Assembly (NCBI RefSeq): GCF_037042905.1
Contig: NC_087250.1
Span: 3,908,001-3,972,000 of the forward strand
Length of the DNA: 64,000 bases
From: Lytechinus pictus
Taxonomy: Eukaryota
Direction: 5' to 3'
This document shows, piece after piece, positions 16,338 to 63,870 of the stretch (positions are counted from its first letter, which is position 1; each line of letters opens with the position of its first letter). The notes under the pieces were generated by a model. That model was not told the origin of the DNA. It made no database searches and was given only the letters and a program-made list of their open reading frames with translations. The position numbers and the translations under genes were made by a program.

Positions 16338-17038
16338 AAATATCAAATTCATCATCTGAAATAGTAAAATAGCCCTAATTCTTCCGCCACATTAAAACAT
16401 AGTTTTAAAGTCATTGATGTATCTTCCAATTAGGGCAAAGGAAGTTCAGTAGTTACCATTTCTAGAATCAGTGTTAGATTTGTAACCATATTCATACACT
16501 TTTGTCAATCAGGAATATCAAATTATAGAAAATCGAATGGGTTGGGTCGAACGAATATCTTTTGCACCCTGCTGTAATTAGTCTCATGACATCCGTATGA
16601 AGCGCTATATAAAGCGGATTATTGAATTTTAATTATTGTTACTGTTATTATTATTCTTATATATTTCCCTCCAATTTCGTTAATATATCAACCGATTTAA
16701 TGATGTAATAATGCACATCAACTAATTTGAATGCCCTATGAGATCATCATTTCAATAGCCAAATTCAATTCAATTTTCTTGGCATTCGATTTCATGGGTA
16801 TCTCGTTTAAACATGTATAAAGAATTAACGATCAAATTAAAATAGCTGAAGAAATGTTTTCAAATTTGCATCTGTACCCTCCTTGCGATCGTCTATGAAT
16901 TAAAAAATAACTTAAAGTAAATTGATCATCATTAATCTCTTTATCGATCTAGGGGTGAACATTGGTGCACAGAAAAAGGGAACAGGGTCTAAGATGCCCC
17001 CAAACGTATGGAATGCATATCACGTGCTATGTATATTT

Positions 17039-26971: not shown

Positions 26972-27438
26972 ATAAGTGGTGGGAACCACTTATAAGTGGT
27001 GGTAACGACTTATAAGTGGTGGGAACCACTTATAAGTGGTGGGAACGACTTATAAGTGGTGGGAACGACTTATAAGTGGTGGGAACGACTTATAAGTGGT
27101 GGGAACGACTTATAAGTGGTGGGAACGACTTATAATTAAGTGGTGGGAACGACTTATAAGTGGTGGGAACGACTTATAAGTGGTGGGAACCACTTATAAG
27201 TGGTGGGAACCACTTATAAGTGGTGGGAACGACTTATATAAGTGGTGGGAACCACTTATAAGTGGTGGGAACGACTTATAAGTGGTGGTAACGACTTATA
27301 AGTGGTGGGAACCACTTATAAGTGGTGGTAACGACTTATAAGTGGTGGGAACCACTTATAAGTGGTGGGAACCACTTATAAGTGGTGGGAACCACTTATA
27401 AGTGGTGGGAACGACTTATAGTGGTGGGAACGACTTAT
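26972..27438. repeat. 20-bp quasi-palindromic minisatellite, ~23 copies
   Basis: Unit ATAAGTGGTGGGAAC(C/G)ACTT repeated head to tail without spacers. Confidence 0.95.
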
Positions 27439-34718: not shown

Positions 34719-34845
34719 ATGGCTACTACGATGGGAAAGTCATTCCGAGTTTATCATAAAGTTGGTCCACCCTATTCTGTGATTCTGGAGGCAAGAAATA
34801 AACAAGAAACACTTCTTTTTGAGTCGGAGGCGGTCGCCGTGCTGA
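34719..34845 (+). CDS. SYNJ1: Synaptojanin exon 1
   Basis: [42 protein letters not shown]; donor GTAAGT. Confidence 0.9.
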
Positions 34846-43800: not shown

Positions 43801-46800
43801 ATATGTAATGTCAGTTATCGTGCCCATACAAATGTTTTATTTCATGACAATCACTTTATATAAAAGTGGAAGATATTTACTTTATGCAGCTAGGATCTCT
43901 TTTTATGTATGATTTTGATTCAGGAAGTCTCCCTTCAGCCCTGGCACTGATATTTAAGAAAAATAGTCAAGTACACAATTACAATACTAGACAATCTTCC
44001 ACTCTCCATATATCTCGTGCAAGAACAAAGTTCACTTTGGGCACTCTAGTTTGCACTGGACCCAGGTTTTGGAATGCACTTGGCCCTGACATTACACATG
44101 CTGTCAGTTCTACAGTGTTTAAACGAAAATTGAAATCTTATTTACTGAGTAACTATGGAAGTGATTCGTAAAGCCTATTTTTCGTGTGTTATTTATCAGT
44201 TAATGCTAAATTATCAATACTTAACATCCCCCCCTTTCCCGGGCCTGGCTGGTCTCTGTCCTCATGTCCCCTTTTTTGTCCCTTTTGTACATAAATGTGT
44301 CCCTCTTCTCTCCCCTCCTCTCTCTTTAGTTATCATATTATATTATATTGCCATTTCTTTGTTGTTTATCCAATGTTCTTTGAATTTGTAATGAGGAACC
44401 TTAATTTACAAGCATTGCTTCACTTAGGTCTCCTCGTCTTCCTTTAAAATTATTTCTTTTCTGTCTTAAGCTGTATAATGTATTTAAAAACAATGTTTTC
44501 TGCATACTCTGTTTTATATATACCTGTTTTATCATGTACTCTGCTCATTGTTTCATACACACTTATATGTTTGTCATGTATTCAAACTCAAAGTTGGAAG
44601 ACAAATAAAATGAACTTATGAACTTATGAACTTATCAACCCTCGTTGATGCTGTGTTCATTCCATTGCACTTAGCCTAACGGCTTTGTGCAATGGATTGA
44701 ACAGAGCCCCAACTCAAGTGAGGATAGATCGCATAATGAACTCATGTGCATGCGTCATTTTCTTGACCTCAGACATCAGACGGGAACAATCAGGACAAAC
44801 TGCCTCGATTGCTTAGACAGGACGAATGCCGTGCAGACCTTCTTCGGACAAGATGTAAGTTTAGGAGGCATTCTTTGGATACATGGATAGAGACATAAAT
44901 ACATATGGGCCCGCGACAGGCGATTTTGGCTGTCATGTGGTGGAAAAAAGAGGTTGTTGAGATATCTCAGAGTTGTGATGCCAAGCTATCAGATGTAATG
45001 TATTTTTAAATGGGAAATGGTGGAGGCATGGATTTAGAATGCTTGGAATTGAGGATGATAATAAATAATTGATATGCACAATTTATTTTGTGCTTAATGC
45101 AATGTTTCTAAGTGCTCGAGCATTCAAGGAATTCCTTCCTACTGGGTACCCATTTAGCCTACTACACCTTGATGGAGAGTGGCAAATGTAGATAGATGCC
45201 TTACTAAAGGACACAGGTGATGTGGTGAGATTTGAACCCCAGACCTTGTAGTTCATCTACTGAGCCACAACACTTCTACTAGAATCCATATTAAAATTCT
45301 TTTGTTAAGATTTTTTTTTTTTTCAATTGATTGATTGATTTTGATTATGTTACAGATGCTGGCTAAGCAGTTAGAAGCTCTTGGTGTTACTAGCAAACCT
45401 CAGATCATGTCACGATTCTTAGAAACATACAGGACCATATGGGGTTTGAGTGGTGACCATATTAGTAGGATATATGCTGGTACAGGCGCATTAGAAGGCA
45501 AGACAACGGTAAGTCAAGAAAAGATGTTACACCAGTCTTAGAAACATACAGGACCATATGGGGTTTGAGTGGTGACCATATTAGTAGGATATTCGCTGGT
45601 ACAGGCGCGTTAGAAGGCAAGACAACGGTAAGTCAAGAAAAGATGTTACACCAGTCTTAGAAACATACAGGACCATATGGGGTTTGAGTGGTGACCATAT
45701 TAGTAGGATATTCGCTGGTACAGGCGCTTTAGAAGGCAAGACAACGGTAAGTCAAGAAAAGATGTTACACCAGTCTCAGAAACATACCCGTCCATATGGG
45801 GTTTGAGTGGTGACCATATTAGTAGGATATATGCTGGTACAGGTGCGTTAGAAGGCAAGACAACGGTAAGTCAAGAAAAGATGTTACACCAGTCTTAGAA
45901 ACATACAGGACCATATGGGGTTTGAGTGGTGACCATATTAGTAGGATATGCTGGTACAGGCGCATTATAAGGCAAGACATCGGTAAGTCAAGAACAGATG
46001 TTACACCAGTCTTAGAAACATACAGGACCATATGGGGTTTGAGTGGTGACCATATTAGTAGGATATATGCTGGTACAGGTGCGTTAGAAGGCAAGACAAC
46101 GGTAAGTTGAAAAACAACTTTACACCAGTCTTAGAAACATACTGGACCATATGGGGTTTGAGTGGTGACCATATTAGTAGGATATACGCTGGTACAGGCG
46201 CGTTAGAAGGCAAGACAACGGTAAGTCAAGAAAAGATGTTACACCAGTCTTAGAAACATACCAGACCATATGGGGTTTGAGTGGTGACCATTTTAGTAGG
46301 ATATACGCTGGTACAGGCGCGTTAGAAGGCAAGACAAAGGTAAGTCAAGAAAAGATGTTACACCAGTCTTAGAAACATATCAGACCATATGGGGTTTGAG
46401 TGGTGACCATTTTAGTAGGATATACGCTGGTACATGCGCATTAGAATGCAAGACAACGGTAAGTCAAGAAAAGATGTTACACCAGTCTTAGAAACATACA
46501 GGACCAGATGGGGTTTGAGTGGTGACCATATTAGTAGGATATATGCTGGTACAGGCGCGTTAGAAGGCAAGACAACGGTAAGTCAAGAAAAGATGTTACA
46601 CCAGTCTTAGAAACATACAGGACCATATGGGGTTTGAGTGGTGACCATATTAGTAGGATATATGCTGGTACAGGCGCGTTAGAAGGCAAGACAACGGTAA
46701 GTCAAGAAAAGATGTTACACCAGTCTTAGAAACATATCAGACCATATGGGGTTTGAGTGGTGACCATATTAGTAGGATATACGCTGGTACATGCGCATTA

Positions 46801-49800
46801 GAAGGCAAGACAACGGTAAGTCAAGAAAAGATGTTACACCAGTCTTAGAAACATACAGGACCAGATGGGGTTTGAGTGGTGACCATATTAGTAGGATATA
46901 TGCTGGTACAGGCGCGTTAGAAGGCAAGACAACGGTAAGTCAAGAAAAGATGTTACACCAGTCTTAGAAACATACAGGACCAGATGGGGTTTGAGTGGTG
47001 ACCATATTAGTAGGATATATGCTGGTACAGGCGCGTTAGAAGGCAAGACAACGGTAAGTCAAGAAAAGATGTTACACCAGTCTTAGAAACATACAGGACC
47101 ATATGGGGTTTGAGTGGTGACCATATTAGTAGGATATACGCTGGTACAGGCGCATTAGAAGGCAAGACAACGGTAAGTCAAGAAAAGATGTTACACCAGT
47201 CTTAGAAACATACCAGACCATATGGGGTTTGAGTGGTGACCATATTAGTAGGATATACGCTGGTACAGGCGCGTTAGAAGGCAAGACAACGGTAAGTTAG
47301 GAAAAGATGTTACACCAGTCTTAGAAACATACAGGACCAGATGGGGTTTGAGTGGTGACCATATTAGTAGGATATACGCTGGTACAGGCGCGTTAGAAGG
47401 CAAGACAACGGTAAGTCAAGAAAAGATGTTACACCAGTCTTAGAAACATACAGGACCATATGGGGTTTGAGTGGTGACCATATTAGTAGGATATACGCTG
47501 GTACAGGCGCATTAGAAGGCAAGACAACGGTAAGTCAAGAAAAGATGTTACACCAGTCTTAGAAACATACCAGACCATATGGGGTTTGAGTGGTGACCAT
47601 ATTAGTAGGATATACGCTGGTACAGGCGCGTTAGAAGGCAAGACAACGGTAAGTTAGGAAAGGATTGTATTCCATCTTTATCTTAATTCCGGGGCCCTGT
47701 CTTTCAAAGAGTTACGATTGATCCAATCAATCTCAACTGAATAGAAATCCATCCATACCGTAATTTTTTCTACAGGAAGTTTGTACAATCTCCTTTGTAA
47801 ACAAAGAGAATCACACTGAATCTTCAAAAGAACGATGATTGTATGAATATACATCGTATCTAGAAAATAGTTTGAACAGATTTGCAATTTAGATGATGAC
47901 GTTGCTGGCTGTCCATAGTCCTGGTTGATCGGATCAATCGTAACTCTTCGTAAGACGGGCCCTTAACCTGCCAACTGCCCTGATTTGATCAGGATTGTCC
48001 TGATTTTCAACTTTCAAAATGGCCCGAAGTCAGGACGTCCTGATTACTGAAATTTAATGTGAGAAAAAAAAATTGTGGAAAAAATCACCATAGACCCATT
48101 CATGCTCCAAGTCTTCAATACATCTTTAAATAGCCCAGTCCTTTTAAGGTTAAATGTGCTACAATTCCGAGGGTAAGTGCCTTCTTCACCCCCTGCACAG
48201 GGCACTGCCTGCCTTTCCCTGAACCCCGCTGGGGGCTTCGTTGTCCCCTTAGACCTTTACACTAGCCTATCCAGCATCAACTACGACAAAGAAATGTATG
48301 GGCCCGTGCACAAGCATAGTAGAGTCACTATTGTCCCCAGACAATTGGGCCCATGAAATGCTTTGTAGGATCTGATGCTGGATACACGCCTGCTCTAGCT
48401 ATTGGGTTATCCGGATTTTGCAGTTTTAATGTTGGCAGGTATGTAATCCAGGTATAGACCAAGAGAGTTACAATTTTTTGGTTTGGGATATTGAATTAAC
48501 GATAGCTTTGAACTAGATCCTTTTCCATGAGTTATGGTCCGGGCTGAAAGTATTTATAGCTTAATAGAGTAGAATTCACTGAGCAAAATGCCGAAAATTT
48601 CAGTAAAATCGGATAACAAATAACAAAGTTATTGAATTTTAAAGCTTAGCAATATTTTGTGAAAACAGTCGTCATGAAAATTCATTAGGTGGGCTGATGA
48701 TGTCATATCCCCACTTTCCGTTTTCTTATGTTATTACATAAAATCATAATTTTTTCATTATTTCATACTTGTGTGAATAATAAGTCTCCCTTATGATGAA
48801 ATAAGTTGCAGCAATAAATATCTAATGCACTAAATCAGTTGCCAATCCAATTTTTCTAGTTCTTGGAGGAAAAAATTTGAATATAATAAAATACAAAAGA
48901 ACAAGTGGGGATGTGACATCATCAGCCCACCTAATGAATATTCATGACGACTGTTTTCACAAAATATTGCTAAAATTAAAATTCAATAACTTTGTTATTT
49001 GTTATCAGATTTTGATGAAATTTTCGGCATTTTGCTCAGTGAATTCTACTCTATTAATTAAGCTATAAATACTTTCAGCCCTGACCATCCCTTTAATCTC
49101 TTATGTTCCCTTACAGGCTGGTAAGCTCCGGGACGGTGCAAGATCGGTGACGCGAACCATACAGAACAACTTCTTTGATGGCACAAAGCAAGAATCTATC
49201 GATGTTCTTTTACTTGGAAGCTCATTAGTAGGAACCCTGGCGGACAAGGCTAGCTCACTCTTACCTAGCAGTCATTTGCATGGTGAGGCATATTTGTTAG
49301 ACTTGTGTCTGGGTGTTTTTTTTTTAATATACTGATGCAAGGAAAATAATCTTCTGTGAAGTTAGTAGACAAGGAGCTTGGTTGACAAGGCTAGCCTAGC
49401 TCACTCTTACCGCGCAGTCTTTTACATGGTGAGGCATATTTGTTAGACTTGTGTCAGGTTGTTTTTGTAACCTATGCTGCTGTAGTGAAAAGATATTCTG
49501 TGAAGTTAGTTGACAAGGAACTTTGTTGACAAGGCTTGCTCACTCTTATCAAGTTGTCATTCATGTGGTAAGATGTCTGTGCAGACTATTGTCTTTTGGT
49601 ATTCATTAAGAATGATATTCTCAAATGGCATAGCCAAATGATGAAAAGCCTGGCTATTTTGAATAATTTGATGGTGTTCATGATAGATAACAAATAAATA
49701 ATCATACCAAATCAATTTTCAAATCAATATGATGTGAAGAGTGATGTTTGAATCCTAGCTATGGCATAATTTCTTTCAAGTAAATGGTGAGTTAAATGGA

Positions 49801-52800
49801 TAGCTAGCAGGAATTTATTCCTTGAAATGCTTGTGCACTGGATAAGGCTGCCATGCTAAATCCGATGTAATAATACCAAGTCCTTTAAAAAGCCACATGA
49901 ACGTTATAAGTGCACTATACAAGTCTTATGTTCTATCATTGTTGTTATCATAAAAAGTGATATGCACTTTAAAGAAATGGCTATCATTTTTAATCCGGTA
50001 AGATATTAAAAGCCATTTCTTCTCTCCCTCTTTCAGCTTCACCGCACATTCTGCAAGGTGTGTGTGAGAGGGAGGGGGACTTCACATCGAGCTCGCGTTT
50101 CAGGATATGCGTCGGGACGTGGAACGTGAACGGGGGCAAGAACTCGCACAGCATCGCGTTCAAGAATGAATCTCTCGCCAACTGGCTTCTCGACAACCCA
50201 CAGGTCGTAGAGGAAACGAATCAAGGTGAAAAGCGTGGTGACATGGGCCCTTATTCTGAAGTCGGGTTTAATCTAAACTCTGGTTTAAAGTTGTGGTTTA
50301 ACTATGGATAGCCAATAGTGGCATAAACCTCTTAACAGCATGATTTCAATGTATTAGCTCACTTTTCTCTCAAATCATTCTAAACTGTTTCGGAAGGATA
50401 TGTAAGATAGCTTTCTTCGCTATTCACAAGTTAGGAAAGAGCACAGTAAACATAAAGTAATGTCCAATGTAAGGACAATTTTGACATGTTTGGCTTTTCA
50501 TAATTTTTACACAGAGTTAGATAATGGTCTAAGTTACTTCAGAATACGGGCCATGATGTTTGCTCCTGCTACAATTGTTTCAGGCTTTTTTTATTTCATC
50601 AGAGAATAGTATTGGGCATTCAATAGGATACAGATATTCAATGTTTATAAGTGCAATGGTAGACAAATAGCAAACAGGCATGAGTGTGGTGGTACAGGAT
50701 TTAGCAGGAGGTGAAAGAAAAATGCTCTTTTCAATGAGGCATTAGCCAAGTTGTAAAGAGTTCTCTTTCGTCCATGAAATGCGAAATGTCGTACCATTCG
50801 CTATTTGTGTTGTACGATGCCTTGGAAGTTAGCGAAAATATGAAGAAAAATCGAGTTTTTCCCTGCTTAATCTATGATAAAGGAGAAAAAAATATTGAAA
50901 GCGAAAAGCAAAATCTCTGAAAATTTTCTTTCACCTAATGCGAAATCTTGCTCCATCGCACTCATGCCTGTTTCGCTATTTGTATACTGATATTGATCAA
51001 AAGTGGATATACATATAACTGCTCTTTGGAGCCAAACTCTTCATGTAAATATTTCATTGGTTTGCTTCATCTTTCAGGTTGTTCAGAGATGGGCGTTGAC
51101 TTCTCTGTTCCGAATGACATCTATGCTATCGGCTTTGAAGAAATGGTGGATCTGAATGCAGGCAATATCATTAGTGCAAGGTGGGTCTTGTGACTTAAAG
51201 GGTTACATTACGGTTGTAATTGATTGAACGTCAGTTTTAGATGCCCCAAACAATTTCAAGTCTTGAAATAAGTAGCATTTTCCCACTGCTTTTTGTAAGG
51301 AAAGACAGAATTATATTTTCAGTCAGTTTTAGTTTCCCTATTCAATCACAAGCTAGCTGCAAGTTTGCACTATTTCTTTAGAGATTAAGAACAAACACAT
51401 TTACCTTCTTTAGTCAGTTTTACTTCCAGTAAATGATCACAAGTCTTGAAATTAGGTTGCAGGTTTGCATTATTTCTTGTTCAAAAAGACAGAATTATCT
51501 TGTCCGGCGCCACATTAATTTTAGGGTGCAACCTCGAGAGGAATTTCGCATGGACTCTGCTAAAACAACTCGCGATAACTTTGGATTTAAAAGAAAAGCT
51601 TTGTGTGTACACTGCAGAATGCCGTGCACACAGTACTATTGTGTGTGTGTGTATGCACAATAGACTTTCTGCATTTCTGTGTGTATTGTTAATCAAATGT
51701 GAAATAAGTTGAAGTTGGCATCTGTGGTATGATTCACTAGTTGAACAAAGCAGGCAAAGAATGAAATTCAACAAGAATTGCATTTTTTTTTCTTTCCATT
51801 TCTTGTAGTACAACAAACCAAAGAAAATGGGGAGTGGATCTCCAAAAGACGTTATCAAGAGAACACAAATACGTTTTACTGGTGTGTGAACAGCTCGTCG
51901 GAGTGTGCCTCTACATCTTCATCCGACCTCAGCACGCACCGTTCATCAGGTAAATTTTATTTTTGAAATATTTTTAATAACTCGTATTTACCCAGAGTAG
52001 CAACTTCACATGTTAGCTGATTTTCAAGCAGGCCCTCCATAACCTAATGTGCAATATGCCAGTTTGCAGTTCCATTCTGCGCATGATCAGAAGGTCATTT
52101 GTACTAAAGTGACATGGCGGTTTAATATTTAATGAGTTAAGCACCAACTTTGATGTCTTGATTATTCATACATTCTTTTGAATTGGGTTTTTCATTAGAT
52201 CCACAAAAAATAACAATGCGTCCATTAGCGACTGGTATTTCACAGTCGGCCAAGTGCACATTGATATAACAACATGCTAATGCATTCGTAGCATAAATGC
52301 AACAAATACCTTCATAGAGTGTTCATTGTGTGCTATTTTAGTCACCTGGGCCCGTCTTACAAAGAGTTACGATTGATCCATCAGTGTCATAATATTTTCT
52401 ACAGGAAATTTGCCCAATGTCATTTGTGAACAAAGAGAAGCACAGTGTATTTTCATGAAAACAATGGATGCATCAATATAAATCATAGCTAGAAAATATT
52501 TTGAACAAACATGCATCATACATGTTGATGTTGCTGGTCGTCCATACTTGTGATTGATCGGATCAATCGCATCTCTTCATAAGACGGGGCCCTAATCTAT
52601 GCAATTTCTGCATCCTGCTATGTAAGGCATGCTTACATAATATCTTGCTTTGAAATCTGCCTATCATAATGAAAGAAATGAAAGGTCATTTGACCAAAAT
52701 TGCCCATGAGGTAACTTCAAACTGGTCTATTATGACACTTCTCCATTCTCAAAATTGTTCATTCACCCCCTCCCCCCCTTGACATTCAAATTGATAGATT

Positions 52801-55800
52801 TGTAATGCCAGAAGAACTGGCCATGATGTGATTACTCTTTTTTTTTTAAAATCTTGCACATCTTTTTGAGTCCAAATTTGGATACCCTTTTGAGCGGTTC
52901 CAAAGTTATGCACTATTTTGTAGTCGTAAATTGGATAAAAAATTGCTCATCATGATGAAAAACCTCCATTTGAGAACACTATACCCCAGTTTTTCTCAAT
53001 CAATTCTCTTCTCCAAGTACGACAAACCCTACTGCCCCAAGCATGCAATGTAAGTATCAAAACACCTGTTTCTTGACCTCGGTCCGAAGATAACACAACA
53101 GCCCGAGCGCGGTCCGTACAGCGAATGCCGCCATTTTTGTCTCGCCTGCATAGCAGAGCGAGACTATAGGCGCCGCTTTTCCGACGGCGGCGGCGTCAAC
53201 ATCAAATCTTAACCTAAGGTTAAGTTTTTGAAATGACATCATAACTTAGAAAGTATATGGACCTAGTTCATGAAACTTGGACATAAGGTTAATCAAGTAT
53301 TACTGAACATTCTGCTTGAGTTTCAGGTCACATGACTAAGGTCAAAGGTCATTTAGGGTCAATGAACTTAGACCATGTTGGGAGAATTATTTTCAAAATC
53401 TTAACCGAAGGTTAAGTTTTTGAAATGACATCATAACTTAGAAAGTATATGGACTTAGTTCATGAAACTTGGGCATAAGGTTAATCAAGTATAAGTGAAC
53501 ATCCTGCTTGAGTTTCAGGTCACATGACCAAGGTCAAAGGTCATTTAGGGTCAATGAACTTTGGTCAAGTTGGGGGTATTTGTTGAATTACTATCATAAC
53601 TTTGAAAATTTATAGATCTAGTTCATGAAACTTAGACATAAGGTTAATCAAGTATTAGTGAACATCTTTCCTGAGTTTCAGGTCACATGGTCAAGGTCAA
53701 AGGTCATTTAGGGTCAATGAACTTTGGCCGTGTTGGGGGTATTTGTTGAATTACCATCCTAACTCTGAAGGTTTATGGATCTAGTTCATAAAACTTGGAC
53801 ATAAGAGTAATCGAGTATCACTGAACATCCTGTACGAGTTTCAGGTCACATGACCATGGTCAAAGGTCATTTAAGGTCAATGAACTTTGGCCGTGTTGGG
53901 GGTATTTGTTGAATTACCATCCTAACTCTGAAGTTTATGGATCTATTTCATAAAACTTGGGATATAAGAGTAATCAAGTATGACTAAACATCCCCTGTGA
54001 GTTTCAGGTCACAAAACCAAGGTCAAAGGTCAGTTAAGGTCAATAAACTTAGGCCATGTTGGGGTAATTGTTGAATTGCCATCATAACTTTGAAAGTTTA
54101 TGGATAGAGTGAATGAAATGTGGACATGGGTGTATTTGACAAGTCTTAAGTCACCGTTCAAATGTCATCTATGGTCAATGAACGTGGTATTATGTCATTA
54201 TATGAATGGTGTTTTTGTGAATGATTATTTTATAGTAGTTTTCAAAGTTAGCACTGCTGCTATATTAAATGCAGGCGAGACTGCCAGAGGCGTTCCACTT
54301 GTTTATTCACTTACTTTCCTTATTTCGAGGTTGATTTTCTTCGTTCGAAATTGAAAATGGACTAACATTGAATTTCTGAATACAATATGCCTTTGAAAAC
54401 GTGATTAAATATCGAATACAATAATTTCATTCCGAAGGTCCTTCTACAGGCAGAGAAGTCTTACGTAATAGCACAGCTGTTGTTTATCATTTCGTCCTTG
54501 GCTTTACTGGCCTGTGGAGGTGAAATTGAGACAACGGGGATTACCTGGCCAAGATGGGTTTATTGGGGCTTGGAAATGTTATTGAGAGTTTCAAATGAAA
54601 AATGGGGTCTAGAACCGCAGTTTGCAATCCGAACTGCGGTGTCCCCCCAAATGGGGTTTTGACGTAATGTCAGTCGTGATTTCATTGACATATTCAAATT
54701 TAGAAATTCACTTCAAATGCGGGGCGTTGTGGTCTAGTGGTTACGAATCTTGTCTTTAAATGAGAGGGACGTGGGTTCGAATCTCAGCCATGGCATATTT
54801 TCCTTCAGCAAGAAATTTATCCACATTGTGCTGCACTCAACCCTGGTGAGGTGAATGGGTACCTGGCAGGATTAATTCCTTGAATGCACCAAGCGCCTTA
54901 AGCAGCTGGAGCTACAGCCTGGGTAATATATAGTGCACCATTGAATAGGAAACTAGATGAATCGGCGCCTCATAAATGCTAAATATTAGTATTGTTATAT
55001 CAAATGTGATGGCATTGAATTTATTTCTGCATTCAAATTAAAAACCAGAGAATACAATGCATAACAAACGACATTTAAAAAAATACACACAAACGACTTT
55101 ACAAAAAGAATTATAACGGAAATTAAGTGGGATCATAGAAAGTTCTTAAAATGCTTTCACAAATGTACATGTATGACGATTGTTTGCCATTGCTGATCAA
55201 GATTGCTCATTGTTTACAACAATACAGGGATGTCGCCGTGGACACTGTAAAGACTGGACTCAAGGGGGCAGCAGGCAATAAAGGGGGCGTGGCAATTCGA
55301 TTTGTCTTCCATGGAACGTCCATGTGCTTCGTATGTGCTCATCTAGCCGCGGGCCAGTCACATATCAAGGATCGGAATGATGATTATGCCGAGATTAGCT
55401 CCAAGATTATGTTTCCTATGGTGAGATTGAGTGTTCCAATAATAAAAGAAAAAAGTTTTGTATGTTACTCAGATTAGAGATTTTGATTGACTCAATGCAA
55501 GATCTTTTGCATTAGGCCTTTTTCATGAAACTTATTGCAATAACAGTTTATGATAACAGTTTTAAGCTACTACAATAGTTTTATTTGATAGGCTGATAGT
55601 GAACTTGTTAGAAAAAAAATGTACATTTGTTATCATAACATACATTTTGAAATGGGACCCAAATTTTTTAAAGCCTTATGATGGTAACCATCAAGGAAAA
55701 ATTGATAATAATTAGCTGCTAACTTTTGTTACTACAAAGGTAGGTACATACCAAAGTCATGTGAGTTTTGTATTTGATGTCTCCCATGCCAAGAATTTTC

Positions 55801-58800
55801 TAAAATGAATTTGAACAGAATTGAATAAAGACCACCCATATCTTTGTATATGTAAGTAAGAATTTTGTGCTGATTTATTCTGTTAAAAAGTGCGTAATTG
55901 TTGAAAAATAAGCAATGCATTCTTGATGTTTTTTTTCCTAGCAATAATAACGTTAGATCTATATATCCAAAGATATGATTGCAATTAAAGGTTAAAGAAT
56001 GTATTTACTGCAAACAATTATTTCATGAGGAAGTCTTTAAAATCAAGATTAATTAACACCCTATTAACATAGATCTAGATCTGGTACATTAACAAATTTA
56101 TCTTTGTGAAATCATGAAATCCTTGATGAAAACTGACAACACTTATGATTACTAATCCCCAAAAGGATATATGAGACAGTGCATTAATATTGCTTGAAAA
56201 AATACCAGACATCTGATGGAATTCTGTTTTTATTTTGTTCATTTCTAAGCAATTACACATTTTCTTTCAGAGCCATTTGGCACAAATTCTTTATTCATAC
56301 ATACAAACTCTTGGTTGGTCCTGTTATTGGATTCTGTGCAAACTCATTTTAAACCTCATTTTAAAGACTGTCTAATTAAATTATTAACCCGTTGCTTACG
56401 GGAACCGGTGGGTTCCCTGTGTTAAACATATGGGATTCAAAGAATCTCGGAGGCAACGGATTAAGAGATCTTGAGTTCAGCTTTAACCCTTGACTTTCTA
56501 TTGCCAGGGCCGTACTCTGGAGAGCCATGACTATGTGTTCTGGTGTGGGGATTTCAACTATCGGATTGACAAGGACAACGATGAAGTCAAAGATCTAGTA
56601 GCCATCCATGACTATGAAGCGCTCAAGGAATGCGATCAACTCTTGATTGAGAAACGTAGTGGAAATGTAAGTATCCCATTCTTCAACATACTTTATGTTA
56701 CCAGCCTGACAAAATTGAATAATAATAAAAATGATAGGCATTTAGAATGTGCTCAACTCTTGATTGAGAAATGCAATGGAAATGTAGTTGTCCCAGTTTT
56801 CTAGATGTGTTATGTTACCAGTCTGATAAAGTTCAGTAATAGTGAAATAAAGGCATTGGGAATGTGATCAACGTTGTCGCCAGAGCAAATGTCATGAATA
56901 TGATTGTATTCTGGGTATTTTGATGGGGGGGGGGGGGCTGAGGGGATTGGCACAGGTTGGGATTTCAAGAGCCAGGCCCTCAATGTCAGCTTTTGAAAAG
57001 ATGACTTCCCTACATCGATTTTCAATCTAGACTTACTTAAAGGGGACACCATTTTTTCTTGATGGAATAACCGGTACTGAATACTTTCTCCTTTTTTTTC
57101 ACTATTTTAGAAAAAAAATTGTGGGCCGGGAGTGGTAGCAGGTCTTTCGTATATGTACTTCCTCCTTTCCCTCTTTCTTCTATCATTTGAAGAAAAGAAA
57201 TTGTGGGTAGGGTTCGGGTAGTGGAAAATCAACAATATATATTATTATTTTTTTTTACAATTATTGATGCTGCGTCACAACATTCCGCTGTGTTTTACGC
57301 TCTTACAGACATTCCAAGGGTTTTCGGAAGGAACGATACGCTTTGCACCGACCTACAAATATGACCTGTTTTCTGATGATTACGATACAAGTGAGAAGAT
57401 GAGGACACCAGCCTGGACGGATCGCATTCTGTGGAGAAGGCACAAACCATTCTACTTCAAACATAGCACAGATAGTAAGACATTAAGACAATTAAATCTG
57501 AAATGGGCATATTAATTTAATTATTCTTATGCCTCCGTCTAGCATAGGTGGTGCCAGAGGCACAGGGGCGGATCCAGGATTTTCCAAAACGGGGGGCAAA
57601 TTTTTCGAAGGAAAACAATTTGACAAGGAAAAAAAAAAAGGTCTTCAACCACAAATTAAACTTGTACCCGAAAAAAATTGACAAGCAAAAAAAAGGTCTT
57701 CAGTTTAAAAAAGGGGGCACACCTCTGTTTTCATGGCATTTTTACATTACAAATTTTTTTGCTTCTCAAAAGGGGGGGGCACCTGCCCCCTGTGCCCCCC
57801 TCGATCCGTGCCTGCAGAGGCATGAAGCTCAACGCACATTATGTGAGGCGATGCGACACATTTTTTTAATTAATTGCATATGGCATTAAAGGTGGAAGTT
57901 TTGAAGTTAATAATGTTAGGAATTATAAAATCATGATGGAACTTTGCGGCAAGCCCTGTGGTCAGAGTAAAGTCCAAATCGGCTTCAAGTCGCAGTCGAT
58001 GATGACATCATTACGATTTTGATTTGAATTTGGTTTTGGTTTTATTCATACATGTACGGGGAGACTCAAACTGGACTGAATTTTGAATTCAGTAGTCCTA
58101 CCACTATTCTGAACACTGAACGCTAAGATTTTATTGGTTGTAATGTTCATATAAAATACTATTGCTATTTCTTTGAAATTTGGATTGCAACGAATTGCAT
58201 AGTATGCGCCGGGCTCTACGCTTTCTGGTTGTCCGTCTGCCCCTTTTTCATTCTCTCAATAACTAAAAGTACTGTTTGACAGAGGAACTTCGAACCTGGT
58301 CCAAGTATGCATATAGAAGTCACGATGATCTGATTAGTTTTGTTCACAGAAGTATTTTGTTCTCACGCTGACTAAGAACCGTTTGAGGGTTCAATATCAA
58401 ACTTTACTCATGTATCCTTATGGGAACGGCAGTGATCTCATTAGATTTTGAGGTCAAAGGTCGAAGGTGAATGTAGAGAATTAATCTAAATTTGGTTTAG
58501 CTTTAAGATTTATTGCCGTCAAAGTTGAATCAACAAAGACATGATGAGACCCTTTCTATTTTGCATGCCTTGGATGGTACGCTTAGATATCAATTGAATT
58601 TACAGGAGATCCCGCTCATGCGTTCACGAGCATGTTCATCACCATCACTCGACGCCATTTTGCGCTTTTTATACGTCTGTCCTACAGGACATATTATGGT
58701 ATAACTTAACCTAGGCTCATATAATCTGGTGTGTATGATACTAGCATAGATCCCAGGAAGCCTATTGATTTTTACGTCAAAAGGTCAAAGGTCAAGGTCA

Positions 58801-61800
58801 CAGTGACATGCTTTCATCTTACCCTTCTGAAGTCCTTGTAAATGCAATAACTTCAGTTTAACTTAACCTAGGCTCATATGATTCGGTGTGTATGATACTA
58901 GCATGTATCCTAGGAATTCTATTGATTTTGAGGTCAAAAGGTCAAAGGTCAACTCGCCACCTTCCACTTTTCTTGCTTGACCAATAAATCCATATTTCGT
59001 TTTACAGGCGGGCGTATTATGTGCTCGCCCCAGTGGCACTCTTTTCAATTCATTATTATTTCTGACCTGTTTTTATCTGGAACTTTGTGGGAAAAAAATA
59101 GCGTACCTGGATTATTTTAAATTTGTGATTTCTTGAAGTGGCTAGAAAATTATTGTGACATCGTTTTCTGAATTTTTTTTTGCATTATGCCCCAACACTT
59201 TACTTCTTGATACATACTCCTCTCTCCACTTCTGTCCCTCTGGCCCATATTCTAAAGTCAGGTTTAACATAGACCACGGTCAAAGTCTGTGCTAAAATTT
59301 TGGGGAGCCAAAAGATCAAAAATCCTGTTTATATTGTATATTTCTTATGTTTACTATTTTGTTTCCTTTTGCTTTCATAATGAAGAAAAATGACTTCAGT
59401 CATCATTCCCAGACAATTATGAAATACTTTGGTCTCATATGAGTTAATACATGTATATAGAATGTGTACTGTTAGGGATTTGTGCTCTAATTTGCTCTCC
59501 ATAGTTAAACCACAACTTGAAACCAGGGTTTGATTTAAACCCGAGTTCAGAATACGGGCCTCTGTCTTTATCTCTCTCTCTCTCTTTGTATTTCTATGTT
59601 TAGATCCATTTGAAGCTTTTCCTGATAACTGGGACCCTGGTCGTGTACTGCACTACGGTCGAGCTGAGCTCAAGACCTCCGATCACAGGTATGGAAACTT
59701 TATCTAAATTTAGAGTTTAAGAATGTAGTTGCAGCAATCCTGGGCCCTGTCTTACAAAGAAGGGCAATCGACCAGATCAACCACAACTATGGAAAGCCAG
59801 CATTGTCAACATCTGCACTCCATGTTGTTATGAAATATATTCTAGATATGATGTAAATCCATACATTCATTGTTTCCTTGACAATTCAGTGTGCTTCTCT
59901 TTGTTTACAAAGGACATTTTGCAAACGTCCTGGAGACAAAATTATGATGTTGAAGGATTTCCATATAGTTGTAGTCGATGGGATCAATCCTAACTCTTTG
60001 TAAGACGAGGCCCTGGTCTATGCAAGGGTTCCTAAGTTAAAACTGAATATCCCATATTTGTATACCAGGCAAGTTTACCTAACATCTTCTCTTAAAAGAT
60101 TAACAATAATTGGGTTCCTGTCCAATTGTGAAGAGGAAACGTCATTTCCAAATAAATTTGCTAGAGAGCTTATTACAAAATGGCTTATTGCAATCATCAA
60201 TGAGGGAAGTGGTGATTTTTTAACTGGTTGCTGAGAATCAGTAACGCTTGTAAGCAAGCAACCAGAGGACTGAACACTTTAAGGTCCTCTCCAAGGGACT
60301 TGGTGTGGAGGATATATGGCTTGAGGGTTCTTACACACTTCTTCTGGCCTTATACATTGTTTCTTTCTAGCGTTCTGTTCATTCATGCAATTTTACCTTG
60401 ATGAGTTCATATTAAAGCTATTTTACAAAAAAGAAGTGAAGCATAGGATTTTCTTCTCAATTAAGATTGGCAGCTTTGTTTGCTACTTCTTCTGTGTACA
60501 GACCCGTGGTGGCCATCATCGAGGTCGAAGTCCAGCTGGTCGATGAGGACACCCGGGAATCAATCTTCCACGATGTCTTCTGCCAGCAGGGTCCTCCAGA
60601 CGCCACTGTCATCCTCTCACTCACTGATCACCATGGAAACCAGGTAGCATTTGCTGAGGATGATATCGATGAGGCGGTGGAGCTGACTGCGTCAGAAGGC
60701 GTGGCTATACTTGTCAGGTGAGAGTGAAATGCAGAAGGCTTGTTGCCACAGTTATTCAATTAACTATTTCTGCCCCTGGTCGCTGCACAGCTCATGAAGA
60801 TTGATGAATTTGCCACACACAGCATGATTAAAGGTAAATGCTAGTTTTGGTAACGATATCAAAATGAGTTCGTACAGAATCCAATGAAATGACCACCAAA
60901 GTGTCTGTTGTATAAATAAAACGCATGTGCCAAAGGATTCTGGAAGAAATTGTGTAATTGCTGAGAAATCATCAAATAAGCACAGGATTCGGGTAGAGCG
61001 TCGGGCCCGACGCTCAAAGCAATAATTATACACAGTCCCACGTGCGCTTATCTGTGTTGTGGAAGTTCAGTCTGAACATTTTCAGCGTAGATTTCAAGAT
61101 TTCACAAAGTTCAGTTTATGTAACTGTACCAGATCTAGATCCTCGATGATATACTGACAATTATGCCTGGTTTTACAGACTTTCTCATGAAATCAGTGTT
61201 TACTGCAACTACTGGAATTTCTCTTTAACATGCAATTTTGACTTCTGTGATTGGTTAATGCCTAGCCCCACTTTTCCTTAGCCTGGTTTCGTTTCACACT
61301 GCATCTCCTAGCACCGCAAAAAGCCAGCTAACCCTGCTTTTTTGCAGGGCCAAATAGTACCGTACTGTTTACCGTGCTAGCCCACTTTGCTAAAACGTAG
61401 TGTGAAAGTGGGCTAATCTAAACCCCGTGAAATTGGTGGGGCTAAGACCCACCAATTTGCCGGCGTCAAGGAAAATATCTGCATTGTGAAAAGCATAATA
61501 TGCTTCTTATATTATAAGAAGCTGTGCTATTTTTGCTTTGACCATACCTTTTCTGTTATGATACTCCTGGAATTTTGTTACTAAGCACAAATGATATTCT
61601 TTTACAGGTTTGTTGGATCTGACATGCTGGTGACCTTCCGGCACGGACACAGTGCTTTATCCGCTCGGGATAACCTCAACAATCATAGCGTGAGTAATAG
61701 ATGAAATGAAAATAAATACAGCCCCGAGTATACATGCTACAGCTTTTCAAGTGACACTCATTTAATTGTGCAAATATAAAAATGAAGGCGTGGTGAAATT

Positions 61801-63057
61801 TGTGTGCAGTTACAGTTGAAGGGATCATTTCACTTTGTGAGCAGCTGATTAAAAAAATTATCAAACTAAGATGAAACATGTGTATGAGTGCCTGTATTTG
61901 TCCTAAAAAATCTGAAACAGAAATATAGGATGAAAAACTCTAATTTAGACATAAGTAGCAATTTATTAGTCTGATTTTGAAAACCGTCTGCAAGATACAT
62001 TTAGCTTATGCCCAGTTTTCTCAAATTCCAAAAGTCTGTTGGCTGTGTTGACTGCCTTCTATGCACACACTATTATTAGCTGCACTGTACATTCAGTGTA
62101 CCTTGTACACACTGTGTATGTAGGTCATGCTGGGTTCATCCAGAGTTTATGTGTTGTAGTGTACAGATTCGCTGTATACACATAGTCATTGAAACCAACC
62201 CCCATTTATTTTAAAACTTTGGTTTACACCTCCAAAGTTATAAAATAGTTCCTGTAAATATAATACTTTTAAACCTTTTGGGATGGTATTTTATACGATA
62301 AGCCTAATGTTTAGCCCATTTCCAAGAACCAAAATTAGATTTTTTTAAAATCAGAACAAAGTGAAATGATCACTTTGATATTATTATCAACCTTTGACCC
62401 TAGATTGGACATAACCTTTTCAAGAGCCAAAATGAGAATGTTTCAAATCAGAACAAAGTGAAATGATCATTTAAATATAATTATCGACCTTTGACCCTAG
62501 ATTGGACATAACCTTTTCAAGAGCCAAAATGAGAATGTTTCAAATCAGAACAAAGTGAAATGATCATTTAAATATTATTATCGACCTTTGACCCTAGATT
62601 GGACATAACCTTTTCAAGAGCCAAAATGAGAATGTTTCAAATCAGAACAAAGTGACATGATCACTTTGATATTATTATCGACCTTTGACCCTAGATTGGA
62701 CATAACCTTTTCAAGAGCCAAAATGAGAATGTTTCAAATCAGAACAAAGTGAAATGATCATTTGAATATTATTATCGACCTTTGACCCTAGATTGGACAT
62801 AACCTTTTCAAGAGCCAAAATGAGAATGTTTCAAATCAGAACAAAGTGAAATGATCATTTAAATATTATTATCGACCTTTGACCCTAGATGGGACATAAG
62901 GTGCTCCATGTGAAGCTGAAGATGGAGGGCTGGTTGGAGCTGCTGGAGAAGGAGCTAGCCATGTGTAGTCCAAACACGGAGAGACTCTTCAACCCTGTAT
63001 CCAGCAGTCTGCTCGGGGAGTCCTTTGATGTGCCGTCAATGAGCTTTGACTTAGAAG
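34719..63057 (+). CDS. SYNJ1: Synaptojanin (SAC1 + inositol polyphosphate 5-phosphatase + RRM-like domain); 20 coding exons, 3025 nt, 3' end beyond the window
   Basis: Spliced translation is collinear with vertebrate synaptojanin-1 as recalled: SAC1 catalytic [12 protein letters not shown], 5-phosphatase motifs [35 protein letters not shown] and TSDHRPV. All introns are GT-AG and phases are consistent. An invertebrate copy may be co-orthologous to SYNJ1 and SYNJ2. Confidence 0.96.
35960..36972. mobile_element. Non-autonomous TIR element in intron 1
   Basis: Ends TACGGACAGTGATTTTCC / GGAAATTCACTGTCCCTA are inverted repeats with 2 mismatches; no TSD confirmed. Confidence 0.55.
37325..37411 (+). 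CDS. SYNJ1: Synaptojanin exon 2
   Basis: [29 protein letters not shown]; flanked by ACAG and GTAAG. Confidence 0.92.
38541..38811 (+). CDS. SYNJ1: Synaptojanin exon 3
   Basis: [29 protein letters not shown]...TDNRFFW. Confidence 0.95.
39085..39462. mobile_element. Foldback (palindromic) MITE in intron 3
   Basis: ATATGACCTCATGAATACATAATTAGCCCCATTGAAGTCAA is mirrored by TTGACTTCAATGGGGCTAATTATGTATTCATGAGGTCATAT around a centre at ~39270. Confidence 0.75.
39525..39800 (-). mobile_element. 3' end of an L2/CR1-group LINE
   Basis: Minus strand reads [36 protein letters not shown], followed by an (ATT)n tail. Confidence 0.7.
39804..39990 (+). mobile_element. tRNA-derived SINE (second family)
   Basis: A box TGGCTCAGTTTG and B box GAGTTCAAGTCC, followed by a non-tRNA body. 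Confidence 0.6.
40099..40324 (+). CDS. SYNJ1: Synaptojanin exon 4
   Basis: NRALHLHL...[32 protein letters not shown]. Confidence 0.95.
40445..40685 (+). mobile_element. 3' terminal fragment of an Ingi/Vingi-like LINE
   Basis: [30 protein letters not shown] resembles a C-terminal Cys/His finger, followed by an (AAG)n tail. Confidence 0.55.
40776..40921 (+). CDS. SYNJ1: Synaptojanin exon 5
   Basis: [48 protein letters not shown]. Confidence 0.95.
41050..41335 (-). mobile_element. tRNA-derived SINE
   Basis: Reverse complement of the 29781 family (GGGTACCCATTCACCTCACCCTGCTTGAGTGCAACAC; TTAACCACTAGACGAC). Confidence 0.85.
41650..41746 (+). CDS. SYNJ1: Synaptojanin exon 6
   Basis: [32 protein letters not shown]. 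Confidence 0.93.
41935..42127. repeat. Low-complexity (CTA/CTT/CCT)n microsatellite upstream of exon 7
   Basis: Trinucleotide runs visible directly. Confidence 0.9.
42167..42333 (+). CDS. SYNJ1: Synaptojanin exon 7
   Basis: [25 protein letters not shown]...[11 protein letters not shown]. Confidence 0.93.
42365..43052. mobile_element. Kolobok-like non-autonomous element
   Basis: Starts TTTAAA|AGGGGAATCCAACC and ends GGCTGAATTCCCATT (imperfect TIR, TTAA-like flank). Confidence 0.45.
43257..44633 (+). mobile_element. 5'-truncated CR1/L2-group LINE in intron 7
   Basis: [22 protein letters not shown] (YADD-like) and [19 protein letters not shown], with stops and frameshifts; AATAAA followed by an (ATGAACTT)n tail. 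Confidence 0.9.
44773..44854 (+). CDS. SYNJ1: Synaptojanin exon 8 (SAC1 CX5R catalytic motif)
   Basis: [27 protein letters not shown]. Confidence 0.95.
45356..45508 (+). CDS. SYNJ1: Synaptojanin exon 9
   Basis: [51 protein letters not shown]; only the first donor (45509) keeps the frame open. Confidence 0.93.
45417..47662 (+). repeat. 119-bp tandem repeat x19: last 92 nt of exon 9 plus a 27-nt spacer beginning with the 5' splice site
   Basis: GTAAGT donors at 45509, 45628 and onward to 47649 (18 intervals; one copy has a 2-bp deletion). Confidence 0.97.
47691..47962. mobile_element. PIF/Harbinger-like MITE, family 1 (further copies at 52348-52592 and 59742-60013)
   Basis: TIRs GGGCCC(T)GTCTT..AAAGAGTTACGATTGATCC / GGATCAATCGTAACTCTT..TAAGACGGGCCC shared by three copies. 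Confidence 0.75.
48534..49091. mobile_element. MITE with ~185-bp TIRs (Kolobok-like end ...CCATCCCT|TTAA)
   Basis: GGGCTGAAAGTATTTATAGCTTAAT...GGTGGGCTGATGATGTCA is mirrored at 48903-49088. Confidence 0.8.
49117..49282 (+). CDS. SYNJ1: Synaptojanin exon 10
   Basis: [34 protein letters not shown]...HLH. Confidence 0.94.
49243..49590 (+). repeat. Diverged ~140-146-bp triplication spanning the exon 10 donor
   Basis: GACAAGGCT..CTCACTCTTA..ATG|GT(G/A)AG, with donors at 49283, 49429 and 49568. Confidence 0.85.
50037..50225 (+). CDS. SYNJ1: Synaptojanin exon 11
   Basis: [10 protein letters not shown]...[41 protein letters not shown]. Confidence 0.92.
50246..50552. mobile_element. PIF/Harbinger-like MITE, family 2 (second copy, inverted, at 59242-59560)
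   Basis: TIRs GGCCCTTATTCTGAAGT / ACTTCAGAATACGGGCC; 3-bp TSDs ATG (this copy) and TCT (59242 copy). Confidence 0.8.
51078..51180 (+). CDS. SYNJ1: Synaptojanin exon 12
   Basis: [33 protein letters not shown]; an alternative in-frame acceptor 9 nt downstream is possible. Confidence 0.88.
51809..51949 (+). CDS. SYNJ1: Synaptojanin exon 13
   Basis: [46 protein letters not shown]. Confidence 0.95.
53134..54303 (+). mobile_element. Helentron/DINE-like non-autonomous element with five internal 162-192-bp tandem units
   Basis: Subterminal inverted repeat GTCTCGCCTGCA (53139) / TGCAGGCGAGAC (54270), T-rich termini, internal units carrying GGTCAAAGGTCA. Confidence 0.7.
54721..54995 (+). mobile_element. 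tRNA-derived SINE
   Basis: A box GTGGTCTAGTGG, B box GGTTCGAATCT, same core as the 29781 copy. Confidence 0.85.
55228..55420 (+). CDS. SYNJ1: Synaptojanin exon 14
   Basis: [25 protein letters not shown]...[21 protein letters not shown]...FPM. Confidence 0.95.
56508..56666 (+). CDS. SYNJ1: Synaptojanin exon 15
   Basis: [21 protein letters not shown]...[12 protein letters not shown]. Confidence 0.95.
56627..56875 (+). repeat. Diverged 117-bp duplication (plus partial third copy) spanning the exon 15 donor
   Basis: GAATG..TCAACTCTTGATTGAGAAA..GGAAAT|GTA with donors at 56667 and 56784; TTATGTTACCAG occurs twice. Confidence 0.85.
57309..57474 (+). CDS. SYNJ1: Synaptojanin exon 16
   Basis: [55 protein letters not shown]. 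Confidence 0.94.
57563..57814. mobile_element. hAT-like MITE
   Basis: 8-bp TSD CAGAGGCA at 57555-57562 and 57815-57822; TIRs CAGGGGCGGATC / GATCCGTGCCTG. Confidence 0.85.
59604..59688 (+). CDS. SYNJ1: Synaptojanin exon 17
   Basis: [27 protein letters not shown]. Confidence 0.93.
60502..60717 (+). CDS. SYNJ1: Synaptojanin exon 18
   Basis: [36 protein letters not shown]...GVAILV. Confidence 0.93.
61608..61689 (+). CDS. SYNJ1: Synaptojanin exon 19 (RRM-like)
   Basis: [27 protein letters not shown]; flanked by TTTACAG and GTGAGT. Confidence 0.88.
62347..62899 (+). repeat. 97-bp tandem repeat x~6 containing the exon 20 acceptor and the first ~11 exon nt
   Basis: CCTTTGACCCTAG ends at 62403, 62500, 62597, 62694, 62791 and 62888. 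Confidence 0.97.
62889..63057 (+). CDS. SYNJ1: Synaptojanin exon 20
   Basis: [56 protein letters not shown]; acceptor CCCTAG, probable donor G|GTAATG. Confidence 0.82.
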
Positions 63058-63103
63058 GTAATGGGATGAAAATGACGAGGAGGAAGGTGGAAGAAGAGAA
63101 GGT

Positions 63104-63725
63104 TGATGATGCTGATGATGTTGATGATGATGCTGAGGATGATGCTGATGATGCTGATGATGATGATGATGATGATGCTGATGATGATGATGATGATGCT
63201 GATGATGATGATGATGATAGGATGGTGATGATGATGATGATGATGATAATGATGATGATGATGCTGATGATGATGATGCTGATGATGATGATGATGATGC
63301 TGATGATGATGATGATGCTGATGATGCTGATGATGATGATGATGATGCTGATGATGATGATGATGATGCTGATGATGATGATGATGATAGGATGGTGATG
63401 ATGATGATGATGATAATGATGATGATGATGCTGATGATGATGATGCTGATGATGATGATGATGATGCTGATGATGATGATGATGCTGATGATGCTGATGA
63501 TGATGATGATGATGATAATGATGATGATGATGCTGATGATGATGATGATGCTGATGATGATGATGCTGATGATGATGATGATGATGCTGATGATGATGAT
63601 GATGCTGATGATGCTGATGATGATGATGATGATGATGATAATGATGATGATGATGCTGATGATGATGATGCTGATGATGATGATGATGCTGATGATGATG
63701 ATGATGATGATTGATGGTGATAATG
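63104..63725. repeat. Long (GAT)n microsatellite with GCT interruptions
   Basis: Directly visible; the GATAGGATGGT interruption recurs 170 bp apart (~63216 and ~63386). Confidence 0.97.
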
Positions 63726-63730
63726 ATATT

Positions 63731-63870
63731 GCTGGTGTGTACTCCAGTACAGAGAGACTGTTCAATCCTGTATCTGGCAGTCTGCTTGGAGACTCCTTTG
63801 ATGTGCCATCAATGACCTTTGATGTGCCATCAATGACCTTTGACTTAGAAAGTACTGGAATCAAAATGAT
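63731..63870 (+). other. Diverged duplicate of the 3' part of exon 20 and its donor region
   Basis: Translates [34 protein letters not shown] versus exon 20 [27 protein letters not shown]. Confidence 0.9.

What the first reader, a model, noticed from the sequence alone, without database searches (positions are those of the whole stretch)
45417..63870. Recurrent amplification of exon-intron junctions: five independent events of different ages in one gene
Seen: tandem duplications straddle the exon 9 donor (119 bp x19, near-identical), exon 10 donor (~143 bp x3, diverged), exon 15 donor (117 bp x2-3, diverged), exon 20 acceptor (97 bp x6, near-identical) and exon 20 3' end (x2, separated by a GAT tract). 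Four of the five units are ~100-145 bp. In every case the intact exon is the terminal copy and the extras extend into the intron. Five of 39 splice sites are affected, while tandem repeats elsewhere in these introns are mostly inside transposons. Inference: this may reflect a junction-biased duplication process (splicing- or R-loop-coupled repair, nucleosome-sized units) that seeds intronic satellites from exons. The alternative is detection bias plus selection removing only the disruptive events.
Basis: partly seen in the sequence, partly recalled or inferred. Interest (0 to 1): 0.7.

Follow-up and report, generated by a model that had tools for sequence, protein, structure and literature searches.

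The report
Splice-junction "mirage" repeats in synaptojanin-like gene
In one animal gene, five exon edges and their splice signals have been copied head to tail into the neighbouring introns; this repeat type is already known from lancelets and a few human genes, and this gene alone only hints that such copying favours exon edges.

Summary
Five of 39 splice sites of a 20-exon synaptojanin-like gene (name recalled from motifs) lie in head-to-tail duplications: 119 bp x19, ~143 bp x3, 117 bp x2, 97 bp x6 and ~770 bp x2. They match amphioxus 'mirage' minisatellites and human F7 intron-7-type repeats.

The interpretation needs cutting back.
- 'Intact exon is terminal' follows from geometry.
- 'Different ages' is not shown. 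The outer edges of the two near-identical arrays are only 70% and 74% identical, like the diverged events. The arrays differ in homogenisation, with a hybrid copy and three-unit block duplications.
- Unit size does not single out junctions: non-junction units are 46-192 bp.
- A local excess remains: 5 of 9 robust duplications span a junction against 1.4-1.7 expected (P 0.005-0.014). P rises to 0.02-0.055 with a 1.5-2x retention weight, in a gene picked after the fact.

No genome-wide test was possible, and splicing was not observed. The scan reported the same pattern in other genes of this genome (unchecked notes). New member of a known kind; junction bias stays open and testable.

The parts
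34719..63057 (+). Host gene, 20 coding exons in the window, synaptojanin-like (SAC1 + inositol 5-phosphatase; name recalled from motifs, no database result); probably continues past 64000
   Evidence: 1008 codons without a stop; 19 introns bounded by GT and AG, plus a GT donor after exon 20
45417..47675 (+). Exon 9 donor array, 119 bp x19 (92 nt exon + 27 nt intron); exon 9 = 45356-45508; 18 spare GTAAGT donors; read-through meets a stop 10 codons past the true donor
49225..49594 (+). Exon 10 donor triplication (~143 bp); exon 10 = 49117-49282; copy 2 is a hybrid (5' part like copy 3, 3' part like copy 1); donors at 49283, 49429, 49568
56627..56872 (+). Exon 15 donor duplication, 117 bp x2 plus a short remnant; exon 15 = 56508-56666; second donor decayed (GTAGTT) but in frame and stop-free (+39 codons)
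62318..62899 (+). Exon 20 acceptor array, 97 bp x6 (86 nt intron + 11 nt exon); first-exon-base positions 62404, 62501, 62598, 62695, 62792 and the authentic 62889; read in the phase of exon 20, each spare acceptor meets a stop after 20 codons
62962..64000 (+). Exon 20 donor duplication: exon end 62962-63057, GAT tract 63104-63727, second copy 63736-63851 with a 21-bp internal repeat and decayed donor (AAA|GTACTG), GAT-rich tail to the window edge
51230..51504 (+). Comparison: purely intronic ~92 bp x3 duplication (71-75%), single-copy DNA, 50 nt downstream of the exon 12 donor
   Evidence: low-depth bin
53204..54199 (.). Comparison: 163/192-bp tandem units inside a high-copy interspersed repeat
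   Evidence: very high depth
58699..58952 (.). Comparison: 157-bp x2 inside a multi-copy repeat
38198..38370 (.). Comparison: 46-bp diverged tandem repeat in intron 2; copy status not tested

Best explanation
These are 'mirage' minisatellites, ordinary local tandem duplications that include an exon edge. Step 1 (inferred): a short template switch during replication or repair duplicates about 100-150 bp; short matches at the break points fit this. Step 2 (geometry and reading frames shown, selection inferred): a unit with one splice junction leaves the exon intact at the end of the array, so it is tolerated; most spare sites lead to a premature stop. Step 3 (shown as pattern): unequal exchange between copies expands and homogenises some arrays and leaves the outer edge diverged. 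Step 4 (inferred from F7 and amphioxus data): only the splice site nearest the exon is used. The excess at junctions is most likely a survival and visibility effect: the exon-anchored copy is held constant by selection and keeps serving as template, and exon flanks escape the transposon turnover of intron interiors. A mild mutational bias may add to it.
For: Hybrid copy 2 at exon 10: its 5' part is 87% like copy 3 and 71% like copy 1; its 3' part is 92% like copy 1, while copies 1 and 3 are 77% alike. Three-unit periodicity in units 8-19 of the 119-bp array: mean difference 2.1 at lag 3 against 3.75-5.4 at other lags, permutation P 0.0015; units 15=18 and 16=19 over the 105 columns compared. 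Boundary exclusion: last intron tail 19/27 against 476/486 for the other tails; first 97-bp unit 23/31 at its outer end against 62/67 for the rest. Ebner et al. describe the same features for mirages (PMC3087553, section 16). Distinct variants in the exon part of the spare 119-bp copies are 6 silent and 13 amino-acid-changing, so no clear coding constraint. Most intron bins are multi-copy repeats in a relative's DNA: 5 of 30 bins have depth under 250 in both DNA runs. Run X8 has one contig of depth 55 on the exon-9 unit, like single-copy exons (46-66), which suggests the x19 expansion is absent there (depth is a weak measure).
Against: The excess survives most nulls. For 5 of 9, P is 0.005-0.014. 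For events outside known repeats (5 of 6), P is 0.0004 on the whole gene and 0.002-0.056 when 30-70% of intron DNA is removed. The one single-copy intronic duplication also lies only 50 nt from a donor. The 1.5-2x retention weight is my assumption, not a measurement. Unchecked notes of this scan report 7 of 19 exons, 7 exon edges in an 18-exon gene, and 7 of 35 junctions in other genes of this genome. Use of the authentic splice sites was not seen: the joints table showed only repeat-derived rows.
Confidence: 0.6

Rival explanations
1. Junction-biased mutation. Duplications arise preferentially at exon edges. One route: repair or recombination between highly divergent haplotypes starts in the conserved exon, runs into the mismatched intron and re-anneals out of register. 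Another: transcription- or splicing-coupled breaks and R-loops concentrate there.
For: 5 of 9 robust duplications, and 5 of 6 outside known repeats, span a junction. The sixth is 50 nt from a donor. G-skew and purine content are nominally raised at affected junctions (P 0.046 and 0.045). Mirages were called possibly general in amphioxus, with unclear origin.
Against: One gene chosen after the fact. The excess fades to P 0.02-0.055 under a modest retention weight. The skew result is uncorrected for four tests and absent for donors alone (P 0.32). All five seeds look old (23-30% diverged at their outer or intron parts), as survival bias predicts. Unit lengths match the non-junction duplications.
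Confidence: 0.27
2. Pure chance: a duplication-rich genome and one outlier gene, with no bias of any kind.
For: Each ~120-bp unit has a 12-22% chance of spanning a junction in this gene. 296 windows of this genome carry notes, so a few at P about 0.01 are expected.
Against: Nominal P 0.005-0.014 here. Several other genes of this genome are reported with equal or higher density (unchecked notes).
Confidence: 0.09
3. Functional arrays: spare splice sites tune expression through unproductive splicing or add an in-frame extension (exon 15, +39 codons).
For: 17 of 19 donors of the 119-bp array keep the exact sequence ACG|GTAAGT. Read-through from exon 15 to the second donor is in frame and stop-free.
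Against: Donor conservation follows from homogenisation of the whole unit. The exon 15 spare donor has decayed, and 23% of 78-nt intron stretches in this gene are stop-free anyway. The array looks absent in a relative.
Confidence: 0.04

Closest known systems
Amphioxus 'mirage' minisatellites (globins BflGb6/BflGb9, Adh3, troponin C, PGBD5). Ebner et al. 2010, PMC3087553 (passages and whole section 16 read); PMC3902484 (one passage); Canestro et al. 2002 seen only in a reference list
   Same: Tandem units spanning an exon-intron boundary, at donors and acceptors; units of 10-160 bp; 81-100% identity; many but not all copies keep GT/AG; concerted evolution with the boundary units left out.
   Different: Different organism (sea-urchin-like, per the scan's notes; not established by my own calls). 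Five junctions in one gene, up to 19 copies, and one unit inflated by a GAT tract. Haplotype length variation and correct splicing were shown in amphioxus and are not shown here.
Human F7 intron 7 37-bp VNTR, and the 6-16, CBS, LMNB2 (100 bp x10-15) and PDGF (81 bp x16-18) cases listed with it. Borensztajn et al. 2006, PMC1557585 (abstract and 12 of 26 passages)
   Same: First monomer spans the exon-intron boundary and repeats the exact donor. The LMNB2 and PDGF arrays match the 119-bp x19 array in unit size and copy number.
   Different: The passages read describe one donor array per gene; here there are several events and one acceptor array. Use of only the first donor was shown experimentally for F7, not here.
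Internal tandem repeats at exon-intron boundaries and intron gain by tandem duplication. De Grassi and Ciccarelli 2009, PMC2812944 (part 1 of 6 and passages); PMC4974935 and PMC3443670 (search listing only)
   Same: Tandem repeats at exon-intron boundaries that multiply potential splice sites.
   Different: There the repeats form new introns or alternative transcripts. Here no new intron is needed for the reading frame; the spare copies lengthen existing introns.

Membership tests
Mirage minisatellite | Head-to-tail units that span an exon-intron boundary | tested here: met
   5 of 5 events include a junction; the exon 20 acceptor unit holds only 11 exon bases
Mirage minisatellite | Authentic exon intact; spare copies lie in the intron; both donors and acceptors can be affected | tested here: met
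   Open 1008-codon frame using the terminal copies; 4 donor events and 1 acceptor event
Mirage minisatellite | Many but not all copies keep GT/AG signals | tested here: met
   19 GTAAGT donors and 6 AG acceptors kept; decayed donors at 56784 and 63852
Mirage minisatellite | Concerted evolution inside the array with boundary units excluded | tested here: met
   Outer edges 19/27 and 23/31 against inner 98% and 93%; block duplication P 0.0015
Mirage minisatellite | Normal splicing unaffected | tested here: inconclusive
   RNA of two relatives was laid; exon depth was low and the 15 joints shown (4215 more not shown) were repeat-derived
Mirage minisatellite | Copy-number instability between haplotypes or cells | not testable with these tools
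   No second haplotype of this species; a relative's DNA run looks single-copy at the exon 9 unit
F7 IVS7-type donor VNTR | Identical spare donors follow the authentic one | tested here: met
   17 of 19 donors are ACG|GTAAGT
F7 IVS7-type donor VNTR | Only the most upstream donor is used | tested here: inconclusive
   The first donor gives the open frame and read-through hits a stop at codon 62; no RNA from this species was seen
Tandem exon duplication (whole, possibly mutually exclusive exons) | Unit holds a whole exon with both acceptor and donor | tested here: not met
   Each unit holds one junction only
Intron gain by tandem duplication | A new intron is formed from the duplicated copies | tested here: not met
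   The model needs no intron bounded by spare copies; minor isoforms are not excluded

The most novel reading that the evidence does not exclude
In this genome, and perhaps in other highly polymorphic marine deuterostomes such as amphioxus, short tandem duplications arise preferentially at exon edges. Conserved exons would anchor strand invasion between divergent haplotypes, and synthesis would slip in the mismatched intron. Repeated exchange with the functional exon then grows these seeds into satellites. Exon edges would be a systematic source of intron growth and of spare splice sites. The unexplained origin of mirages would become testable as a function of heterozygosity.
Probability: 0.25. 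Interest if true: 0.7.

Novelty: new member of a known kind. Interest (0 to 1): 0.35.

Why it matters
As it stands, this is a clear multi-site example of a rarely noticed repeat class whose origin Ebner et al. call unclear. It shows that near-identity of such arrays should not be read as youth: the seeds are old and the copies are kept alike by exchange. It also gives natural substrates with 18 spare donors and 5 spare acceptors for testing splice-site choice in an invertebrate. If a genome-wide count showed that young duplications favour exon edges, it would identify a mutational bias that shapes intron length and supplies raw material for new splice sites. My nine literature searches listed no echinoderm report and no genome-wide enrichment test. 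The library holds only openly licensed PubMed Central papers and bioRxiv, and I judged most hits by listing only.

Tried and rejected
2. Sequencing runs: no RNA holder listed; no run holds half the words. The four runs laid come from related organisms. For the DNA runs, exon pieces are about 96% alike and the intron pieces that align are about 90% alike. I laid 47520-62425 only, which has one unit of each large array and leaves out exon 9 itself and exon 20. The joints and loose-end tables were swamped by interspersed repeats, so there is no evidence on splice-site use or on whether the relatives share the exon 10 and exon 15 duplications.
3. GAT tract as coding poly-Asp: rejected. Read-through shifts from poly-D to poly-M and stops after 169 codons.
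4. Weak candidates dropped before the count: 5 of 14 clusters (39090, 41936, 57074, 57613, 58246; scores 21-23, within the shuffled range up to 28). All are non-junction, so including them would weaken the excess.
5. Nucleosome-sized units: no distinction from non-junction units.
6. R-loop skew: nominal only.
7. The value 14/30 for the first 97-bp unit was a one-base misalignment; 23/31 replaces it.
8. Transposon mask by self-BLAST covers only 17.5% of intron DNA, a lower bound, so I bracketed with 0-70%.
9. Searches of earlier findings for an enrichment test or nearby notes returned nothing.
10. The gene's family name rests on recalled motifs and has no database result behind it.
Full report
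Setting. The window holds a large satellite region upstream and, from 34719, a 20-exon gene on the + strand. Its exons join to 1008 codons without a stop and give 39 splice sites. From recalled motifs (SAC1 and inositol 5-phosphatase signatures) it is synaptojanin-like; no database result backs the name. No genome is held. Earlier notes of the scan call this genome a sea urchin; I did not test that.

Observation. Self-alignment of the gene found 14 local clusters. Nine score 35 or more, above the highest of 10 shuffles (28); five score 21-23 and were dropped. Exon 9 donor: 119 bp x19, 92 nt exon plus 27 nt intron. Exon 10 donor: three copies 137-146 bp apart. Exon 15 donor: 117 bp x2 plus a remnant. 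Exon 20 acceptor: 97 bp x6, with only 11 exon bases. Exon 20 donor: a second copy 773-794 bp on, behind a GAT tract that is not coding. Of the four others, two sit in bins that are multi-copy in a relative's DNA, one (51230-51504, ~92 bp x3) sits in a single-copy bin 50 nt past the exon 12 donor, and one was outside the laid stretch.

Age and turnover. The near-identical arrays are not shown to be younger in origin. The last intron tail of the 119-bp array matches the inner consensus at 19 of 27 bases, against 476 of 486 for the other tails. The outer end of the first 97-bp unit matches at 23 of 31, against 62 of 67 for the rest. The diverged events give 77% (exon 10, copies 1 and 3), 72% (exon 15 intron part) and 77% (exon 20 intron part). 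Intervals are wide (about 52-89%) and overlap. The difference between events is how far later exchange went. Copy 2 at exon 10 is a hybrid, like copy 3 in its 5' part and like copy 1 in its 3' part, as unequal crossing-over predicts. Units 8-19 of the 119-bp array show three-unit periodicity (P 0.0015). Break points show short matches (about 3-8 nt, about 14 nt at exon 15, read by eye), which fit template switching but do not prove it. In run X8, one contig of depth 55 lies on the exon 9 unit, in line with single-copy exons, so the x19 expansion looks absent there; X13 has no contig at that place.

Consequences for splicing. Read-through to spare donors meets a stop at exons 9, 10 and 20, and each of the five spare acceptors, read in the phase of exon 20, meets one after 20 codons. 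The exception is exon 15, where the second donor is in frame and stop-free but decayed; 23% of 78-nt intron stretches here are stop-free anyway. Variants in the spare exon copies are 6 silent and 13 amino-acid-changing. Actual splice-site use was not seen, because the RNA laid came from relatives and the joints shown were repeat-derived.

Is there a junction bias? I collapsed the gene to 24,818 bases and placed units at random, excluding wholly exonic or whole-exon placements. Each unit then has a 5-22% chance of spanning one junction, or about 30% for the 773-bp unit. Expected 1.4-1.7 of 9, observed 5, P 0.005-0.014. Without the window-edge event, 4 of 8 gives P 0.019-0.034. For events outside known repeats, 5 of 6 gives P 0.0004 on the whole gene and 0.002-0.056 when 30-70% of intron DNA is removed as transposon. 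Giving junction events 1.5-2 times the chance to stay visible raises P for 5 of 9 to 0.023-0.055 (all); that weight is assumed. The gene was chosen for being extreme among 296 noted windows. The excess is therefore real locally but cannot separate mutation from retention.

That the intact exon is terminal follows from geometry. Unit sizes overlap those of non-junction repeats and are capped by exon length (median 156). G-skew is nominally higher at affected junctions (P 0.046) but not among donors alone (P 0.32).

What is known. Ebner et al. 2010 (PMC3087553; passages and section 16) describe amphioxus 'mirages': tandem duplications of either boundary, 10-160 bp, 81-100% identical, with concerted evolution that leaves out boundary units, no effect on splicing, and unclear origin. 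PMC3902484 (one passage) adds PGBD5 and troponin C. Borensztajn et al. 2006 (PMC1557585; abstract and passages) show that only the first donor of the F7 intron 7 repeat is used, and list LMNB2 (100 bp x10-15) and PDGF (81 bp x16-18). De Grassi and Ciccarelli 2009 (PMC2812944; part 1 of 6 and passages) report repeats at exon-intron boundaries in duplicated human genes. Every structural feature of mirages that I could test is met; splicing and haplotype variation are untested. The lead to mirages and to F7 came from earlier notes of this scan, and I checked it in the papers. Those notes also report the same pattern in other genes of this genome; they are unchecked and are not counted as support. 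Nine paper searches listed no echinoderm case and no genome-wide enrichment test.

Verdict. Real, and a new member of a known kind. Best reading (0.6): tolerated local duplications, expanded by unequal exchange, over-represented at exon edges mainly through survival and visibility. Mutational junction bias 0.27, chance 0.09, function 0.04. Interest 0.35; about 0.7 if a genome-wide test of young duplications shows the bias.

Noticed in passing
window 1-16338 and 21441-24244: A large satellite of ~217/229-bp subunits (446-bp dimer, 36 copies, 94% matches) runs off the window's start; the same family recurs in inverted orientation at 21.4-24.2 kb, with fragments between.
   Followed up: no
window 51230-51504: Old ~92 bp x3 duplication in single-copy intron DNA only 50 nt past the exon 12 donor; near a junction without spanning it.
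   Followed up: partly
window 56508-56783: Read-through from exon 15 to the spare, decayed donor is in frame and stop-free (+39 codons); a possible minor isoform, probably chance.
   Followed up: partly
window 63104-63727 and 63795-63843: A 624-bp GAT/GCT tract with internal block repeats inside the exon 20 donor unit, and a perfect 21-bp repeat inside the second exon copy; more copies may lie beyond the window.
   Followed up: partly
window 48535-49092: A ~555-bp multi-copy element just upstream of the exon 10 acceptor is absent from a contig of run X8 (record 9 joins 48534 to 49093), so it is a lineage-specific insertion or a loss in the relative.
   Followed up: partly
window 26972-27438 and 25411-25522: A 20-bp minisatellite x23 and a 37-bp repeat x3 upstream of the gene, away from any modelled exon.
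   Followed up: no
window ~31600-33300 (- strand) and ~43200-44000 (+ strand): Decayed non-LTR retrotransposon-like stretches, recognised by eye from the sequence; not searched.
   Followed up: no
window 62872-62888: The exon 20 acceptor region contains the reverse complement of a motif that recurs in the 163-bp interspersed repeat units at 53.2-54.2 kb; may be coincidence or a repeat-derived acceptor.
   Followed up: no
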